Under the pieces are notes generated by a model. It worked only from the letters and a program-made list of their open reading frames with translations. It made no database searches and had not been told where the DNA came from. A DNA stretch of 64,000 nt from Patellaria atrata CBS 101060 (lineage: Eukaryota). Both the position numbers and the translations under genes were made by a program. This document shows, piece by piece, positions 9,947 through 46,108 of this stretch; position 1 is the first letter of the stretch; the number at the start of each line of letters is the position of its first letter. The DNA lies in the NCBI GenBank assembly GCA_010093705.1, contig MU006091.1, positions 124,001 to 188,000 of the forward strand, read 5' to 3'.

Positions 9947-10897
9947 TCAATCTCCTCTTGAGTCTTGTATAACTTTGAGTGCTTCCCTTTCTTCTCCCAT
10001 ATCGCCGTAAAGCCCTAATATCGTAATACAGCGACCTTTTCCCTTCTCCCCCTGCTGCTTAGCTTGTTTCAACGCTGTCGCGAGGTCTAAGAGAATAGTG
10101 TTTCTGATCCTAGTAACCCGGTGTTGTTGCGCTACGATGAATGGATGTTCCTGGCCAGTCTGTAATATTTGGTGCAAAATATACGTGTAGTCTTGCACAT
10201 GCTTTCGAAGTTTATGGGTGGGAACATATGTAGATTCTAGCTCATCCTCATTCTCATATTCATCGTCCTCATCGTCCTCATCCTCGTCTTCATCCTCTGT
10301 GCTCTCGGGTATAACGTTTGCGTCACTGTCTGATGGCTCCACATGCTTATTACCTACCGACTCCAGCATCAGCCTGCCCTCTAACTCCCCTATTCGAGCT
10401 TCAGTCTTCAGTAATTCCCACGCCATAATTCTACGCTTCCTAATCTCTTCCCTGCGCCGGAATAGCTCATCGGCCTCTACTTTCCTCTGCACTACCACTC
10501 TCCTCACATCCTCAACAGACTTGCCGAAACCCATCAACCCTACCCGGACACCCTCCACCTTCTCCTCGCCGCCCTTCAAGCTTCCCCCTAGACCCAAGAA
10601 GTCCTGGTAATTTGAGTTCACCAGGTCTAGGAGTTCGCGGTTGAGCAGCTGGGTGCGGGAGCGTAGCTCGGCCCGCAGATCCTCGAGTGTTTGGTGGCGG
10701 TTTCGTAGGCTGGAAAGATAGATCGAGGGGGAGAAATCCGGCGCGACAAAGGCGGAGCGCGGAAGAGGAGTTGGGAAGGGAAGGGTGCATTCGTCATCCT
10801 CGGATGAGGAGTGGGAGGAGGTCGAGGTGGAGGAGGAGGAGCGGCGGGCAGTACTGTGCGAGGTCGCCTCCAAACCTATGGAGAACTTTGCGGACAT
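9947..10897 (-). CDS. COG2: Conserved oligomeric Golgi complex subunit 2-like protein
   Basis: LPFP.PL.RSAF..PDFSP..YLSSLRNRHQTLEDLRAELR...ELLDLVNSNYQDFLGLG motif typical of the fungal COG2 N-terminus. Confidence 0.85.
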   Translation of the reverse strand: MSAKFSIGLEATSHSTARRSSSSTSTSSHSSSEDDECTLPFPTPLPRSAFVAPDFSPSIYLSSLRNRHQTLEDLRAELRSRTQLLNRELLDLVNSNYQDFLGLGGSLKGGEEKVEGVRVGLMGFGKSVEDVRRVVVQRKVEADELFRRREEIRKRRIMAWELLKTEARIGELEGRLMLESVGNKHVEPSDSDANVIPESTEDEDEDEDDEDDEYENEDELESTYVPTHKLRKHVQDYTYILHQILQTGQEHPFIVAQQHRVTRIRNTILLDLATALKQAKQQGEKGKGRCITILGLYGDMGEEREALKVIQDSRGD

Positions 10898-11053
10898 TTA
10901 TTGATTGGAAGATTCTGGTGTGCTTAGTACGCTTCAAGTTTGCATCCGTAGGACTTGGGCATGGAAACTCCTGAGGACGATTGTAATGCTGGAATTTCCT
11001 ATTTCATGGTGATACCTCCATACATCCACGACATCCAAATGGGTGAGGTGCGG

Positions 11054-11066
11054 CAGTGTGGCCAAC
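11054..11066 (+). repeat. Left terminal inverted repeat of the hAT element (preceded by TSD AGGTGCGG at 11046-11053)
   Basis: CAGTGTGGCCAAC, perfect inverted match to 14491-14503. Confidence 0.96.
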
Positions 11067-11320
11067 GATCCGTATCGATAAGGTATTAGTATTCTCGGTA
11101 TTTCATCGGTATTGTATCGAATATCATAATACCTTAACAATACCCTTGGCATTTTAAGATTTGTTTATATTCTTTAGAATTCAACTAAAATATTATCGTT
11201 TTCTTAGAAATTTAATTAAAATAAAGATACTCTTCGTACGAAGGGATTGTATAGCTATGAACAACATCTATAGCTGTTCTAAGATAGAAGGCACGAGGGC
11301 GTGCCTACGTGCCTGCCTGT

Positions 11321-11401
11321 CCACCTGTCTACTGGCCCACCTGTCTACTGGCCCACCTGTCTACTGGCCCACCTGTCTACTGGCCCACCTGCCTACCTGC
11401 C
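11321..11401 (+). repeat. 16-bp tandem repeat (CCACCTGTCTACTGGC)x4 plus a degenerate partial copy, inside the transposon upstream of the cargo gene
   Basis: Perfect units start at 11321, 11337, 11353 and 11369; CCACCTGCCTACCTGCC follows. Confidence 0.95.
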
Positions 11402-11548
11402 AGTTTGTACAAAATAGATCTTCTTTTGAATTTCTCAATTTCTCTTCTTCTCTTCTCTTCTTCTCTCCTTCTCAATCTTTGATTTTAGTAACTCAAAGTG
11501 TAAGTACTCAGCTTAAACCTATCGTACGAAGGCTAATAATACTATAGT

Positions 11549-12082
11549 ATGGCCAATATGCAAGTAGTTCTCTATAACCCAGCGATCACGGCTGCCGCTC
11601 ACGCGAACCGCAACCCGGTTCTACTTGTAACACAGCAGCAATTGGCTCCGTGGTGTCACAGCCCACAGAATAGAGCACTTCTGGCCGTCGGTGGAGGTGT
11701 TGATGTTGAGTTCGTACGCGACTCTATCACACCCGAGCAGATTGGATCTCATAGGCAGTCATATGTCAATGGGATTCTTATCCAGTCTCGTGGAGGTGAT
11801 GTTGATCCTTGTGCGGCTTGTCGTACGAGAGATTTCCGTCCCTTCCTTAGTTGTCACCGCGCTGAGGGACACTTTGGCGGAACATGCGCCAACTGCAAAT
11901 GGCGCGACCATGCAGCACGCTGTTCCGTACGAGCTGGTGGTCCAGATGAGCCTGCTCAAGGAGCCAGGGTGCTTGGACCTGGTTCAGGGGTTGACGGAGC
12001 TGACGGCACCGCCCCTGGGAATGCTATTGTGCTGGACGACGATGAGGGGCTTCCTCCCCAAAATGCTATAATCATTGGTTGA
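11549..12082 (+). CDS. Transposon cargo gene: 177-aa DUF3716-like six-cysteine (putative zinc-binding) protein
   Basis: QSRG...PCAAC-x10-C-x10-CANC-x8-CSV matches the DUF3716 pattern as I remember it (PF.SC...GHFGG.CANC); ORF lies wholly between the TIRs and converges on the transposase. Confidence 0.8.
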   Translation: MANMQVVLYNPAITAAAHANRNPVLLVTQQQLAPWCHSPQNRALLAVGGGVDVEFVRDSITPEQIGSHRQSYVNGILIQSRGGDVDPCAACRTRDFRPFLSCHRAEGHFGGTCANCKWRDHAARCSVRAGGPDEPAQGARVLGPGSGVDGADGTAPGNAIVLDDDEGLPPQNAIIIG

Positions 12083-12219
12083 GCAGAGCTTCGTACGAAG
12101 TATTCTTTGGCGTTTGAGCGTTCTGGCGTTTCGGTGTTCTGCTTTGCCTAGCTATCCAGGGCTGTTGGTAGCACTCAGACGTGATCTGTACCTTTACGTG
12201 TGTCTGAGATCAGTAGCCA

Positions 12220-14322
12220 TTAGGTGAAACTAAACAGATCGTACGGACCTTTCAATAAATTCTTTTGTTTTGCCCAATGTTTAAGACATTCAGTATGTTC
12301 TAACTCTCTTGAACTTAAGCGTGATCTTTCCCATGGTACCGTACGACGAGCTGCTGAAAACACTCGTTCTGGTTCATCGCTCATTGCTGGAATTGAGAGG
12401 ATCTCAATTGCAAGTATAGATAATCGTGGAAACCGAGCTCTTTGAGTATCAGTTAACCACCATTTAATAGGTGAAATGTCCCCAATATCGTACGGATCTT
12501 GGTTGATATAGTCTTCAAACTCATCTCCACTTAAGGGAGCCTTATTAAACCACTCAATTTGATTAAGAACACGTTCAAAATCAGTCATATTCTCAGGTGG
12601 AGTTCTTCTCTTTTCTTCGTACGATGCTGATAACGGTACTGAACAGGTTTTACTCCATTTTTCCCAGTATAATCTAGCAAGCTTAATCATCTGCTCGCCT
12701 TTCCCTCTTTCCTTCTTCCAACCTTCCCTAATAAGCTTTGTACGATAGTAAGGAGTAAAGATTGTCGCAAGAATATGGCAAGGTGAGGTAAGAAGTGTAG
12801 AATAATACTTCTCAAAAAGCTGTAAAGCTTTATGAAGCTGAGGTCCAAAGTCTTTCTTATATATACGTTCATACTTTCTTAAAAGAATATCAAAACCAAG
12901 CATTGTACGAAGTGTCATACCGAATGTTAGAGAATGGCCTTGATTTAGAAGCGTTGCCTCATAAAAAGGGCGAAGAATTGTATGGATCGTACGAAGCTTT
13001 TCCCAATCTTTATGCGAAAGAGAATCTTCTTCAAGATCACTATACCATCTCTTAACATACGAGTCAATTTCTTCTTCTTTACTTAGCGCAATATCTATCA
13101 TGATATACCAGCTATTCCATCTCGTACGATTATCAAGTGGAATCATTCTCTCTGCTCTTGTGGTAAAATCTTTCAAATGACGTGTAGAGCTTCGAATATG
13201 AACTATAATATTATGAAGCTTTCCAAGTGGCCCTACCGTACGGAAGGTTGACTGTCTCTGCTTTCTTAAGCTGGCTTGTCTTATCTCATATTCCTCTGTT
13301 GATACTTCAAGTGTAAGACTACTTAGCCCTTGAGATTCAGTCTGTTCCTCAGCGTCGTACGACTCAAGTAAGTCTAAGTCTATTGTACCTGCAAAGAGAA
13401 AGGTTTGTACAACCAAGTTAATAATATGGCCTATACATCGAATTCTTTGAGATGAATAGTCCCATATCAGCTCTTGACTCTCTTGAAGATATTGACTAAG
13501 TAACTGGCAAAGCTTATCATTCGTGGAAGCATTATCACCAATAATAGTACCAAGCCTTCGTACGATACCATAGTCTTGAAGAACTGGAAGAAGTATCTCA
13601 AGTTGTTCACTAGATGAATGGTTTCCTACTTCTTTAAGACCAAGTAATGCTCTTTGAGGTATCTCCTCCGTACGATCAATGAAATGCGCGATAATACCAA
13701 GAAGAAGTATCCGATTTGGAGAAGTCCAGATATCAAGTGAGATATGGATGTTTGCAGGCGCTGATTGAAGTTGTTTTCGTACGAGATCTTTTTGGAAAGA
13801 GAAAGAAGCTGTAATTCTTTTTGAAATTGTTGAGTGTGAAGATGGAATAAAGCTCTCTGACTGCGGGTTAAGAGCTAGACAAAATGCGCGAAATTCAGGC
13901 CATTCAATCATACGGAAGGGGAGTCTTCGTACGGTAAGTAGTTGAGATAGCGCTTTATCAATAATATTTTGATTAAGAATCTTTTGTAAGACCAGCTGAT
14001 CCAGCTCATTTAATCCAGTATGCTCGCTTGACCGGTAAAGATCTAATAGTCCTTGGAAAGCGTCTTCCCCTATCTTCGTACGAGGCTCTTCTAAAGCTAT
14101 ATTGTGTGTTTTAAGAAGATGCTTCTTAAATTTTGTACTAATTGTTGTATTATATGAACAATTATATTTACACTGATAGAGAGGCTTGTTTTGATCGTTT
14201 CGTGGAGGGTCTCCTATAGTTTGTATACGCGTATGTTTCCAAAGAAGGGATCTTGTTGGTCGTACGATAGTAGATGATGGTTCTGAGGTAAAACTTATTA
14301 TTGAATCAATTTCAGAAGCCAT
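12220..14322 (-). CDS. hAT transposase, 700 aa, apparently intact
   Basis: BED-like finger (YQCKYNC...KHLLKTH), ISLDIWTS, IIGDNASTND, RCIGHIINL, TRWNSW, C-terminal dimerisation motif SIPAMSDEPERVFS. Confidence 0.96.
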   Translation of the reverse strand: MASEIDSIISFTSEPSSTIVRPTRSLLWKHTRIQTIGDPPRNDQNKPLYQCKYNCSYNTTISTKFKKHLLKTHNIALEEPRTKIGEDAFQGLLDLYRSSEHTGLNELDQLVLQKILNQNIIDKALSQLLTVRRLPFRMIEWPEFRAFCLALNPQSESFIPSSHSTISKRITASFSFQKDLVRKQLQSAPANIHISLDIWTSPNRILLLGIIAHFIDRTEEIPQRALLGLKEVGNHSSSEQLEILLPVLQDYGIVRRLGTIIGDNASTNDKLCQLLSQYLQESQELIWDYSSQRIRCIGHIINLVVQTFLFAGTIDLDLLESYDAEEQTESQGLSSLTLEVSTEEYEIRQASLRKQRQSTFRTVGPLGKLHNIIVHIRSSTRHLKDFTTRAERMIPLDNRTRWNSWYIMIDIALSKEEEIDSYVKRWYSDLEEDSLSHKDWEKLRTIHTILRPFYEATLLNQGHSLTFGMTLRTMLGFDILLRKYERIYKKDFGPQLHKALQLFEKYYSTLLTSPCHILATIFTPYYRTKLIREGWKKERGKGEQMIKLARLYWEKWSKTCSVPLSASYEEKRRTPPENMTDFERVLNQIEWFNKAPLSGDEFEDYINQDPYDIGDISPIKWWLTDTQRARFPRLSILAIEILSIPAMSDEPERVFSAARRTVPWERSRLSSRELEHTECLKHWAKQKNLLKGPYDLFSFT

Positions 14323-14490
14323 TATTTAGGAGAAGAACCACCTTATCGTACGTAAGGGTGACAAATTCTATTAAATTGTGGGTTTCGCTGTATTAAGCGA
14401 AGTATTGTTAAAGTATTATTAAGGTATTTATCGATATCGAGCCGATACAATACTAATCCGTATTCGATAGTTATCTAATACTAAAGTATT

Positions 14491-14503
14491 GTTGGCCACA
14501 CTG
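14491..14503 (-). repeat. Right terminal inverted repeat of the hAT element (followed by TSD AGGTGCGG at 14504-14511)
   Basis: GTTGGCCACACTG. Confidence 0.96.
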
Positions 14504-14749
14504 AGGTGCGGTCACCAAAGGTGCACGGGCCATATGCAGCTGAGAGTGAGCTTCCCCTCAATATTTTTGTGCAAGAGATATTCACAATAATTTAACTGGT
14601 AGATAAAGACTGTTACTAATTAATCGTCTTCACGATCGTCCACCACAAAACTCCCACCATATCATAGGTTCCGATGATGTAACAATCAAGAATAAGAACT
14701 AGACACACTTGACCTCGGTCCGTTTTCACCTCTCCTTCATCCCATTCAG

Positions 14750-45079: not shown

Positions 45080-46108
45080 ATGCTCACTCTAATGCGAGAG
45101 GAATCAATGATCCAAGTAATCGAACGAAATGAGCGAAGTTTTTTAATGAGGATATTGCAAGTATTCCTCCGTCCTTTTGGCCACCGTCTTATCTCTTCGA
45201 ATAATACGACTCCAGCTGGTTCGCAACATTTAAGTCCCCATCGTACGATAATGAAGCAATGCACAGTCACCGAGCGTGAGGTGGAAGGCCTCTTCATTTA
45301 TGACCTGGAACCCAAGTCCCCGCCAGCAGTATTTCAGCAACACAAACCGTACAGAATATATTATTTCGGTGGTGGAGGCTGGCAGATGCCCCCTTCCAGC
45401 GAGCACTGGAAAATGGGCTGCGAACTATGTATGCAACTTTCAGACGTAACAACCAGTCTGGTCTCCTATCCTCTCGGTCCACACAGTCCCGCTCCCGTCG
45501 CTTTCCCACAGTTGCTTACGATGTACCGCTCGCTGATGCGTTCGGCCTACGAGGCTGGAGAAACTGTGACATTGATGGGCGACTCGGCAGGCGGTAACGT
45601 CATTCTGGCCCTCACGATAGAGGCGTTGAGACAACATCCAGACAGTCTTGCCCCGAAGTCCCTATTTGTGATATGTCCATCTACAGATTTGACGCGCGAA
45701 AATCCCGCGATCCGTGAACTTGAGCCGATGGATCCGTTGCTAGACTATAAGTCTGTTCTCTCGTCGGCCAAAAATTGGGCTGGAGGATGGGATCGAGCAG
45801 ATCCCCGGGTATCACCTCTCTTTGCAGATATAGCTCTTCTGGCCGCTGCGAATGTTAAGGTCAATGGCATAACTGCTGGCTACGATGTGCTAAGCCCAGA
45901 TGCCATCTTATTCAGGGAAAGGTGTGCAAAGGCTGGTATTCAAGGAAAGTGGTTACACTGGGAAAAACAGATGCATTGCTTTGTGTTAGCATGGGTGTAT
46001 GGTTTGAGGGAATCTAAAGAGGCGAAGGACTGGATGATTGAGACCTTGAGGAAAGTGTTTACGTCTGATACGAAAGTAAAGACAGCTAACGATGGGATAA
46101 ATACCTGA
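45080..46108 (+). CDS. Alpha/beta hydrolase (HSL-like esterase/lipase)
   Basis: GGGW oxyanion motif, GDSAGG nucleophile, DVL.PD and QMHCF. Confidence 0.88.
   Translation: MLTLMREESMIQVIERNERSFLMRILQVFLRPFGHRLISSNNTTPAGSQHLSPHRTIMKQCTVTEREVEGLFIYDLEPKSPPAVFQQHKPYRIYYFGGGGWQMPPSSEHWKMGCELCMQLSDVTTSLVSYPLGPHSPAPVAFPQLLTMYRSLMRSAYEAGETVTLMGDSAGGNVILALTIEALRQHPDSLAPKSLFVICPSTDLTRENPAIRELEPMDPLLDYKSVLSSAKNWAGGWDRADPRVSPLFADIALLAAANVKVNGITAGYDVLSPDAILFRERCAKAGIQGKWLHWEKQMHCFVLAWVYGLRESKEAKDWMIETLRKVFTSDTKVKTANDGINT

What the first reader, a model, noticed from the sequence alone, without database searches (positions are those of the whole stretch)
11235..14352. Quasi-periodic CGTACG palindromes written through coding sequence in all three codon phases
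Seen: 21 perfect copies in 3450 bp (1 per about 165 bp), against roughly a dozen counted by eye in the other 60.5 kb (about 25-30-fold enrichment), although the element is AT-rich. 12 copies are TCGTACGA and 19 of 21 fit YCGTACGR. Gaps between successive copies are 288, 190, 109, 104, 166, 148, 100, 149, 129, 370, 135, 114, 119, 203, 110, 109, 150, 149, 184 and 86 bp, never below 86, so they are over-dispersed rather than clustered. In the transposase they fall as x-Val-Arg (TIVRP, GIVRR), Arg-Thr (EPRTK, LRTIH) and Ser/Pro-Tyr-Asp/Glu (ESYDA, DPYDI). Inference: selection acts on the DNA, not the protein, as a second code overlaid on the ORFs.
Basis: seen in the sequence. Interest (0 to 1): 0.88.

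Follow-up and report, generated by a model that had tools for sequence, protein, structure and literature searches.

The report
Evenly spaced palindromes inside fungal transposon
A jumping gene of a fungus carries about twenty evenly spaced copies of the eight-letter palindrome TCGTACGA written straight through its genes, a feature shared with distant relatives and most likely a row of docking sites for a DNA-binding protein.

Summary
An intact 3450-bp hAT transposon (window 11054-14503) holds 21 CGTACG, against 13 in the other 60.5 kb. Amino-acid-preserving codon shuffles of the transposase give a mean of 0.79 against 14 observed. The spacing is far more even than chance.

The array is a family trait. 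In 80 related metagenome loci (35-46% protein identity), CGTACG is the commonest palindromic hexamer in 36. The family motif is TCGTACGA. About 15 sites sit at the same codons across the family, using the motif-forming codons in 44-92% of amino-acid-compatible loci against about 5% expected. Some lineages shifted their sites but kept the spacing. Others show decayed relics.

It is not the end-binding repeat, which is an ATCGAT-type cluster at the termini. All 11 elements that also carry a small zinc-protein gene (DUF3716) are motif-rich. Elements without that gene range from rich to fully decayed.

The same 8-mer is a published activating promoter element of CYP51 in two other Dothideomycetes.

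Best reading: a selected array of docking sites for a symmetric DNA-binding protein. I found no description in print.

The parts
11054..14503 (-). Complete hAT transposon, 3450 bp, 41% GC; the transposase gene is on the minus strand.
   Evidence: Perfect 13-bp terminal inverted repeats and an 8-bp target duplication. Two intact ORFs.
11046..11053 (.). Left copy of the 8-bp target-site duplication, AGGTGCGG.
   Evidence: It is identical to 14504-14511.
14504..14511 (.). Right copy of the 8-bp target-site duplication, AGGTGCGG.
11054..11066 (+). Left terminal inverted repeat, CAGTGTGGCCAAC.
14491..14503 (-). Right terminal inverted repeat, the exact reverse complement of the left one.
11235..14352 (.). 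Array of 21 CGTACG palindromes, 12 of them TCGTACGA. They start at 11235, 11523, 11713, 11822, 11926, 12092, 12240, 12340, 12489, 12618, 12988, 13123, 13237, 13356, 13559, 13669, 13778, 13928, 14077, 14261 and 14347.
   Evidence: There is no site in the outer 181 bp (left) or 151 bp (right) of the element.
12739..12744 (.). Decayed site TGTACG, one CpG transition away from the motif, at family site position aa 527.
   Evidence: It lies in the 370-bp gap.
12904..12909 (.). Decayed site TGTACG at minor family site position aa 472.
12220..14322 (-). hAT transposase, 700 aa, holding 14 of the 21 sites.
   Evidence: Pfam Dimer_Tnp_hAT, E 4.7e-15. 282 homologues, the best at 46% identity.
11549..12082 (+). 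Accessory ORF of 177 aa: a DUF3716 cysteine/histidine-rich protein with an acidic tail, convergent with the transposase. It holds 3 sites.
   Evidence: Pfam PF12511, E 4.1e-12. 37 homologues. Conserved Cys/His columns.
11054..11200 (.). Left subterminal region with TATCGA/GGTATT-type short repeats and no CGTACG.
   Evidence: Sequence read. Relatives have ATCGAT clusters at the same place.
14360..14503 (.). Right subterminal region with TATCGA/AGTATT-type short repeats and no CGTACG.
   Evidence: Sequence read. Family pattern.

Best explanation
The palindromes are an array of docking sites on double-stranded DNA for a symmetric, probably dimeric, sequence-specific DNA-binding protein. Selection keeps them across the whole interior of a family of fungal hAT transposons.

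Shown:
- The sites are written into coding sequence by codon choice, and in places by residue choice.
- They are kept at the same positions for long evolutionary times.
- They are replaced nearby when lost, and they keep a minimum distance from each other.
- They are distinct from the clustered ATCGAT-type repeats at the ends, where the transposase is expected to bind.

Inferred:
- A bound protein roughly every 110-150 bp keeps the whole element transcribed and free of repressive chromatin. That is, the array acts as an element-wide enhancer or anti-silencing array.
For: DNA-level selection:
- Codon shuffles give 0.79 against 14 observed.
- Motif codons are used at 15 canonical positions in 44-92% of compatible loci, against about 5% expected.

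Family trait:
- CGTACG is the commonest palindromic hexamer in 36 of 80 related loci, with up to 26 copies in 2843 bp.
- Site positions are shared across the family.

Symmetric recognition: the family logo has T at -1 in 84% and A at +1 in 79% of sites, nothing beyond that, and 271 of 405 sites are perfect TCGTACGA.

Spacing is itself selected:
- L027 and L044 moved many sites by a few codons yet kept the intervals.
- In non-homologous DNA outside the transposase ORF, 2 of 79 gaps are under 30 bp against 17.4 expected, P 7.5e-7.

Not the end repeat: ATCGAT sites cluster within about 100 bp at both ends of relatives, while CGTACG avoids the outer 45-300 bp.

Link to DUF3716:
- All 11 elements with a DUF3716 ORF (10 loci plus the window; L009 and L010 are one element seen twice) have 5.8-8.2 sites per kb of transposase.
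- 14 intact elements without it range from 0 to 6.5. Mann-Whitney P 1.4e-4 and Fisher P 0.001, not corrected for phylogeny.
- DUF-bearing elements lie in at least 7 separate places on the tree, with motif-poor lineages between them.
- Motif-poor elements carry decayed relics at the canonical positions.
- DUF3716 has 8 conserved Cys/His and an acidic tail.

Activating role of the same word:
- In P. fijiensis, six copies of a 19-bp TCGTACGA-bearing element raise cyp51 expression at least 3-fold; a promoter swap validated this (PMC6637983, passages and Discussion).
- In C. beticola, a resistance-associated SNP 124 bp upstream of CbCYP51 turns CCGTACGA into TCGTACGA (bioRxiv 10.1101/2020.11.12.379818, passages).
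Against: - No binding was measured, for any protein.
- The DUF3716 model matches no solved DNA-binding fold. The best Foldseek E-value is 3.7, with HAP1 zinc-cluster chains only at E about 5. The wide structural search found nothing at Z 2 or more. The only sequence hint in the PDB is a ZZ finger, a protein-binding module, at E 3.7.
- Five intact elements keep a dense array without a DUF3716 gene in cis: L001, L021, L034, L057 and L065. The gene is therefore not needed in cis.
- An enhancer would be expected to cluster at a promoter rather than spread evenly through ORFs.
- RIP-like decayed copies exist in the family, so any protection is not absolute.
- Because all DUF-bearing elements are motif-rich, the association could partly reflect shared age or intactness.
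Confidence: 0.4

Rival explanations
1. The array is read by a host transcription activator only, the one that reads the TCGTACGA element of CYP51 promoters in Dothideomycetes (a sterol-regulator-type zinc-cluster protein). The transposon hijacks it for stress-inducible expression. DUF3716 has an unrelated job.
For: - The same 8-mer is a copy-number-dependent activating element in P. fijiensis cyp51.
- It is the target of a resistance-associated SNP in C. beticola. There the authors' JASPAR scan predicts a stronger UPC2 site for the TCGTACGA allele.
- This reading explains the five dense arrays without a DUF3716 gene.
- The closest named relatives of the window's ORF2 are from a Dothideomycete.
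Against: - It does not explain why every DUF3716-bearing element is motif-rich, nor why arrays decay where that gene is absent.
- It does not explain the even spread through coding sequence or the absence from the outer ends.
- The transcription factor is unidentified in the papers I read.
- Outside the element the window holds only one perfect TCGTACGA in 60.5 kb, at 45242, inside an ORF.
Confidence: 0.25
2. The sites serve transposition itself. They are internal binding sites for the transposase or a partner that compact the element, bring its ends together, block suicidal insertion into itself, or tether the excised DNA to chosen targets.
For: - Even coverage of the whole interior with a minimum spacing is what coating or self-protection needs.
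- The trait is conserved with the transposase across the family.
- The analogy to target immunity and to autointegration barriers is recalled, not tested.
Against: - The family's clustered end repeats are a different word, ATCGAT.
- Many intact relatives have lost the array yet keep intact transposases and ends, so it is dispensable for at least some lineages.
Confidence: 0.12
3. The word acts through DNA mechanics or chromatin alone: an alternating pyrimidine-purine hexamer that phases or excludes nucleosomes about once per nucleosome length, with no dedicated reader.
For: - Gaps inside the transposase ORF have a median of 143 bp and an interquartile range of 121-156.
- Pooled over 29 dense runs the median is 144, with 171 of 427 gaps between 120 and 160 bp.
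Against: - Outside the ORF the spacing is shorter and loose, median 110 and interquartile range 75-167.
- The tight mode inside the ORF is largely inherited position.
- Strict conservation of an exact 8-bp palindrome is typical of protein recognition, not of bendability signals.
Confidence: 0.08
4. The word works in RNA. Self-complementary 8-mers pair within or between transcripts, or GTACGA acts as a splice-donor-like U1 site on either strand.
For: - The word is self-complementary.
- GTACGA resembles fungal 5' splice sites (recalled).
- Sites lie in both transcribed genes.
Against: - Sites are equally kept in non-coding spacers and near-terminal DNA of relatives.
- The flanks are symmetric whichever way the genes point, whether the two genes are convergent or tandem.
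- No contig joint started at a site (contigs only).
Confidence: 0.05
5. There is no function. The pattern is a by-product of codon usage, shared ancestry, RIP or CpG mutation.
For: - Many sites sit on conserved residues (VR, RT, S/P-Y-D/E) and are inherited by descent.
- Copy-to-copy differences are mostly C>T and G>A.
Against: - Codon shuffles and the codon test across relatives exclude codon usage and protein constraint.
- The word contains no CpA or TpG, and RIP or CpG decay destroys it rather than makes it.
- CpG observed/expected in the element, 0.91, equals that of the flanks, 0.93.
- Sites turn over with the spacing kept.
- Sites recur in non-homologous spacers.
Confidence: 0.03

Closest known systems
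Subterminal transposase-binding repeats of hAT elements (for example the short repeats near the ends of maize Ac; recalled)
   Same: Short words repeated many times inside a hAT element and read at the DNA level.
   Different: - Those repeats cluster within about 100-250 bp of each end at roughly 10-bp spacing. This family has such clusters too, but of ATCGAT.
- The CGTACG sites avoid the ends, run through both ORFs, and lie 110-150 bp apart.
TCGTACGA-bearing promoter element of CYP51 in Pseudocercospora fijiensis and Cercospora beticola (PMC6637983, PMC8252799, bioRxiv 10.1101/2020.11.12.379818)
   Same: The identical 8-bp palindrome, in the same fungal class. Its effect depends on copy number or on how perfect the palindrome is.
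   Different: - There it occurs as 1-6 tandem copies about 100-125 bp upstream of one host gene.
- Here it occurs as about 20 dispersed copies inside a mobile element, mostly in coding sequence.
- The binding protein is not identified in the passages I read.
Yeast sterol response element TCGTATA read by the zinc-cluster proteins Upc2/Ecm22 (recalled; the C. beticola authors' JASPAR scan points to UPC2)
   Same: The TCGTA core is present on both strands of TCGTACGA.
   Different: No Upc2-type protein was examined here. The resemblance rests on a matrix scan by others and on recall.
Dispersed palindromic sites read by an element-encoded dimer in episomal viruses (papillomavirus E2 sites, EBV EBNA1 repeats; recalled)
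   Same: Many copies of a short palindrome spread over a selfish DNA, possibly read by its own small protein. The sites serve expression or maintenance, not cutting.
   Different: These are viruses, not a cut-and-paste transposon. Binding of DUF3716 to DNA is not shown.
REP9, an IS3EU-type class II transposon of Zymoseptoria tritici with two DUF3716 genes (PMC8232023, passages)
   Same: A DNA transposon of a Dothideomycete that carries DUF3716 accessory genes.
   Different: It belongs to a different transposase superfamily. No motif array is reported in the passages I read, and I could not examine its DNA.

Membership tests
hAT transposon superfamily | 8-bp target-site duplication | tested here: met
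   AGGTGCGG on both sides. 8 of 8 matches also in L023, L033, L036, L067, L072, L075 and L080.
hAT transposon superfamily | Short terminal inverted repeats beginning CAG | tested here: met
   13-bp perfect CAGTGTGGCCAAC. Relatives begin CAGGGTGG, CAGGCTYGGC and similar.
hAT transposon superfamily | Transposase with the hAT C-terminal dimerisation domain | tested here: met
   PF05699, E 4.7e-15, residues 602-683.
hAT transposon superfamily | N-terminal BED-type zinc finger | tested here: inconclusive
   Pfam did not report PF02892 for the window's protein at E 0.01. Some homologues carry it in precomputed annotation. C51 and H73 are invariant and H68 nearly invariant.
DUF3716 (PF12511) proteins | Match to the Pfam model above its cut-off | tested here: met
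   46.3 bits against a cut-off of 22. All 34 aligned homologues match.
hAT subterminal transposase-binding repeats (as a label for the CGTACG sites) | Clustered within the outer 100-250 bp of both ends | tested here: not met
   No site in the outer 181 and 151 bp. The sites are spread over the interior. ATCGAT fills the end-repeat role in relatives.
Dothideomycete CYP51 promoter palindrome or sterol-response-type element | Same recognition word | tested here: met
   The family consensus TCGTACGA equals the core of the published elements.
Dothideomycete CYP51 promoter palindrome or sterol-response-type element | Bound by the same factor and activating transcription | not testable with these tools
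   No binding or expression data exist for the element. No run on record as RNA was listed.
Zn2Cys6 zinc-cluster DNA-binding domain (as a label for DUF3716) | Sequence or fold match to the zinc-cluster domain | tested here: not met
   No Pfam Zn_clus hit at E up to 10 in 34 members. Foldseek gives HAP1 chains only at E about 5. The wide structural search gives none.
RIP product | The word is created by C-to-T changes at CpA/TpG, with skewed dinucleotides | tested here: not met
   The word holds no CpA or TpG. CpA and TpG observed/expected are 0.87 and 1.00, and both ORFs are intact. Decayed relatives lose the word.

The most novel reading that the evidence does not exclude
A transposon-encoded self-marking system. 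A small zinc protein (DUF3716) carried by the element reads an 8-bp palindrome that selection has written about once per nucleosome length through the whole element, coding sequence included. This would keep the element free of silencing or repeat-induced mutation, or steer where it lands. Host promoters such as CYP51 would then use, or have borrowed, the same word.
Probability: 0.3. Interest if true: 0.9.

Novelty: new variant of a known kind. Interest (0 to 1): 0.78.

Why it matters
1. It would be a clear natural case of a second, DNA-level code laid over protein-coding sequence in a eukaryotic mobile element, conserved across relatives that share only about 40% of their residues. It shapes both codon choice and, in places, the protein.

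2. It gives the widespread fungal domain DUF3716, which recurs in DNA transposons, a testable role.

3. It links a transposon family to a promoter word that matters for azole-fungicide resistance in crop pathogens. It therefore points to the still unnamed factor that reads that word.

4. It offers a simple experimental handle, synonymous recoding, on how transposons escape or manage chromatin silencing in fungi.

Tried and rejected
- Whole genome of the window: none is held, so copy number and other transposon families could not be examined.
- Earlier scan notes: nothing near this place. A word search returned only unrelated giant-virus MITE notes.
- Fold of DUF3716. The AlphaFold2 model has mean pLDDT 71.7, with the core at about 90. 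It had no Foldseek match at E 0.001 or better and no match at Z 2 or more in the wide structural search. The PDB profile search gave only chance-level rows. The protein atlas gave one lead at 0.80, which is within noise. No longer fused forms were found.
- DUF3716 homodimer job: no verdict. It counts neither for nor against.
- Sequencing runs: no listed holder is on record as RNA. Contigs of four runs show the element in many pieces at 85-100% identity. Of the 40 variant places shown (118 more were not shown), none lies inside a hexamer core, but only about 1.5 were expected, so this says nothing.
- A switch to another word in motif-poor relatives. ATCGAT enrichment turned out to be end clusters. 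No other evenly spread word was found in 21 motif-poor transposase ORFs, except an unexplained CTTCGA excess in L028.
- The single perfect TCGTACGA outside the element (45242) lies inside an ORF, not in an obvious promoter.
- Literature. Searches for CGTACG plus transposon, DUF3716, TCGTACGA, hAT, fungi and palindromic motif, CGTACG plus fungal transcription factor and CGTACGA plus CYP51 found no description of such an array in a transposon. They also named no factor that binds the word.
Full report
**What is there**

The finding lies in a complete hAT transposon at window 11054-14503 (3450 bp, 41% GC).
- It has perfect 13-bp terminal inverted repeats, CAGTGTGGCCAAC, and an 8-bp target duplication, AGGTGCGG.
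- It carries two intact, convergent genes.
  - A 700-aa transposase on the minus strand (12220-14322) has the hAT dimerisation domain.
  - A 177-aa ORF on the plus strand (11549-12082) matches DUF3716.
- No whole genome is held for the window.
- The closest named relatives of the small ORF are proteins of the Dothideomycete Patellaria atrata, at 77% identity and 97% over a partial protein. More distant ones come from Botrytis and Usnea.
- The transposase's named relatives come from Hirsutella, Purpureocillium and Talaromyces, at 42-45% identity.
- Contigs of two public runs of one organism hold the element in hundreds of pieces at 85-100% identity. The differences are mostly C>T and G>A, so it is a multi-copy family there.

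- There are 21 CGTACG in the element and 13 in the other 60.5 kb. Shuffles of the window give 7.4 in all.
- CGTACG is the commonest hexamer of the element, and 12 copies are TCGTACGA.
- In the transposase ORF, 5000 synonymous-codon shuffles give a mean of 0.79 and at most 5, against 14 observed. The 14 sites use all three phases.
- The gaps have a CV of 0.44 and a minimum of 86 bp. Random placement reaches such a minimum in 5e-6 of simulations.
- The one long gap (370 bp) contains two relics, each one CpG transition away from the motif.
- The element is not CpG-poor or CpG-rich relative to its flanks (observed/expected 0.91 against 0.93). It shows no clear RIP signature.

**It is a family trait**

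A scan of metagenome contigs with an alignment of 31 transposases returned 80 loci out of 416 confirmed relatives, at 35-50% identity.
- CGTACG is the commonest palindromic hexamer in 36 of the 80, with up to 26 copies in 2843 bp.
- Over 403 sites in 25 motif-rich elements, the flanks are T at -1 (84%) and A at +1 (79%), with no information beyond. 271 of 405 sites are perfect TCGTACGA, so the word is an 8-bp palindrome.
- Mapped onto the window's protein, the sites fall on about 15 recurrent codon positions.
  - Nine are present in the window: aa 130, 180, 253, 321, 399, 444, 567, 610 and 660.
  - Six are absent from it: aa 32, 56, 230, 273, 382 and 527.
  - The best-populated positions are occupied in 18-38 of 60-80 loci.
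- At these positions, loci whose residues permit the word use the word-forming codons in 44-92% of cases. About 5% is expected from the family's own, already inflated, codon usage.
- At aa 230 and aa 273 the residues R-T are found almost only together with the word: 21 of 24 and 24 of 26 loci. Here the DNA constraint shapes the protein.

**Spacing is more than inheritance**

- In the divergent pair L027/L044 many sites sit a few codons away from the canonical ones (125, 167-171, 214, 255, 354-361, 495, 570-587, 623-625). The intervals are kept all the same.
- The poorly conserved N-terminus carries one or two sites at lineage-specific places.
- In elements with both genes, the array continues through spacers, the DUF3716 ORF and non-coding DNA up to 45-300 bp from the ends.
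- Gaps inside the transposase ORF have a median of 143 bp (interquartile range 121-156). Outside it the median is 110 bp (75-167).
- In that non-homologous DNA only 2 of 79 gaps are under 30 bp, against 17.4 expected for random placement, P 7.5e-7.
- The constraint therefore looks like [quoted passage not shown]. A strict nucleosome-length period is not supported.

**What it is not**

It is not the end-binding repeat.
- Relatives have tight clusters of ATCGAT within about 100 bp of both ends.
- The window's ends hold TATCGA-type repeats and no CGTACG.

It is not made by RIP or CpG decay.
- The word has no CpA or TpG.
- Motif-poor relatives show decayed relics at the canonical positions, such as TCATATGA, TTGTACAA, TCGTCCGA and TCGCACGA, often with the protein intact.
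- The array is therefore ancestral and has been lost repeatedly.

**Link to the accessory gene**

A profile of DUF3716 finds the gene in 10 loci next to the transposase. The arrangement is either convergent or tandem. An eleventh, decayed fragment elsewhere (L073) was left out.

Elements with defined ends fall into two architectures:
- 2.3-2.7 kb with the transposase alone;
- 3.3-3.7 kb with both genes.

All 11 elements with the gene (the window included; L009 and L010 are the same element seen twice) have 5.8-8.2 sites per kb of transposase.

The 14 intact elements shown to lack it, by their ends or by at least 1.1 kb of downstream DNA, range from 0 to 6.5:
- five are rich: L001, L021, L034, L057 and L065;
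- nine are poor.

The difference gives Mann-Whitney P 1.4e-4, not corrected for phylogeny.

On a tree of 67 rows, DUF-bearing motif-rich elements lie in at least seven places, with motif-poor lineages between them. Fourteen rows with fewer than 480 aligned residues were dropped. This fits relaxed selection on the array once the gene is gone. It also shows the gene is not needed in cis.

**What DUF3716 is**

- It has eight conserved Cys/His (C88, C91, C102, H108, C113, C116, H121, C125), a conserved basic core and an acidic tail that ends in a short hydrophobic motif.
- The model is confident over the core.
- It matches no solved fold and no DNA-binding family by sequence.
- Its DNA binding is therefore an inference from co-distribution only.
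- DUF3716 genes are also carried by an unrelated DNA transposon of Zymoseptoria (PMC8232023, passages).

**The same word in host promoters**

- In Pseudocercospora fijiensis, a 19-bp element, TAAATCTCGTACGATAGCA, lies about 103-122 bp upstream of cyp51. It is repeated up to six times in azole-resistant isolates, and a promoter swap raised expression at least 3-fold (PMC6637983, passages and Discussion).
- A later paper calls it a palindromic element (PMC8252799, passages).
- In Cercospora beticola, a resistance-associated SNP 124 bp upstream of CbCYP51 changes CCGTACGA to TCGTACGA. The authors' matrix scan predicts a stronger UPC2-type site (bioRxiv 10.1101/2020.11.12.379818, passages).
- So in this fungal class the word is a functional, activating cis-element read by a factor that these papers do not identify.

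**Verdict**

- Shown: a conserved, DNA-level selected, evenly spread array of an 8-bp palindrome through a transposon family.
- Inferred: it is a row of docking sites for a symmetric DNA-binding protein. The array keeps the element expressed or unsilenced.
- Rivals that remain open: roles in transposition, nucleosome phasing without a reader, and RNA.
- Six literature searches found no description of such an array.

Noticed in passing
window 11318-11392: About four and a half tandem copies of a 16-bp unit (CCACCTGTCTACTGGC) lie in the non-coding DNA between the left end and the DUF3716 ORF. A contig of run X3 skips 48 bp here, which is three units, so the copy number varies.
   Followed up: partly
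window 11054-11200 and 14360-14503; L018, L034, L057, L080 ends: The family's subterminal repeats are ATCGAT/TATCGA-type words in tight clusters at both ends. This resembles the TATCGATA-type words bound by BED-finger proteins such as DREF (recalled, not tested).
   Followed up: partly
window 10897-11054: The element's left end lies 157 bp upstream of the ATG of a 316-aa minus-strand ORF (9947-10897). It is therefore inserted in a promoter-proximal intergenic region.
   Followed up: no
alignment A2 (DUF3716 proteins), C-terminal columns: Most homologues end with an acidic or serine-rich run followed by a short hydrophobic motif (PIVL, AIVL, AIIIG). This resembles an activation domain or a SUMO-interaction motif (resemblance recalled).
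   Followed up: no
L028:351-2342: This intact, motif-poor transposase ORF holds 13 copies of CTTCGA/TCGAAG against about 1 expected. They are not at the canonical site positions. This is unexplained.
   Followed up: partly
L023, L053, L070, L071, L073, L076: One clade of copies from long fungal contigs is heavily decayed: 26-34 stops, 34-37% GC, rich in TATATA. The pattern is RIP-like, and most CGTACG sites are lost.
   Followed up: partly
L037:2390-2517: A 49-nt inverted repeat, 98% complementary with a 30-nt loop, lies in the spacer between the two genes. Each arm carries one CGTACG site.
   Followed up: no
L036:6614-6957 and L068:2342-2753: The DUF3716 match is split into two frames 30-53 bp apart. 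This suggests a short intron or a frameshift in these copies.
   Followed up: no
L009 and L010: The same 3.7-kb element, with identical site pattern and scores, was assembled from two different metagenomes.
   Followed up: no
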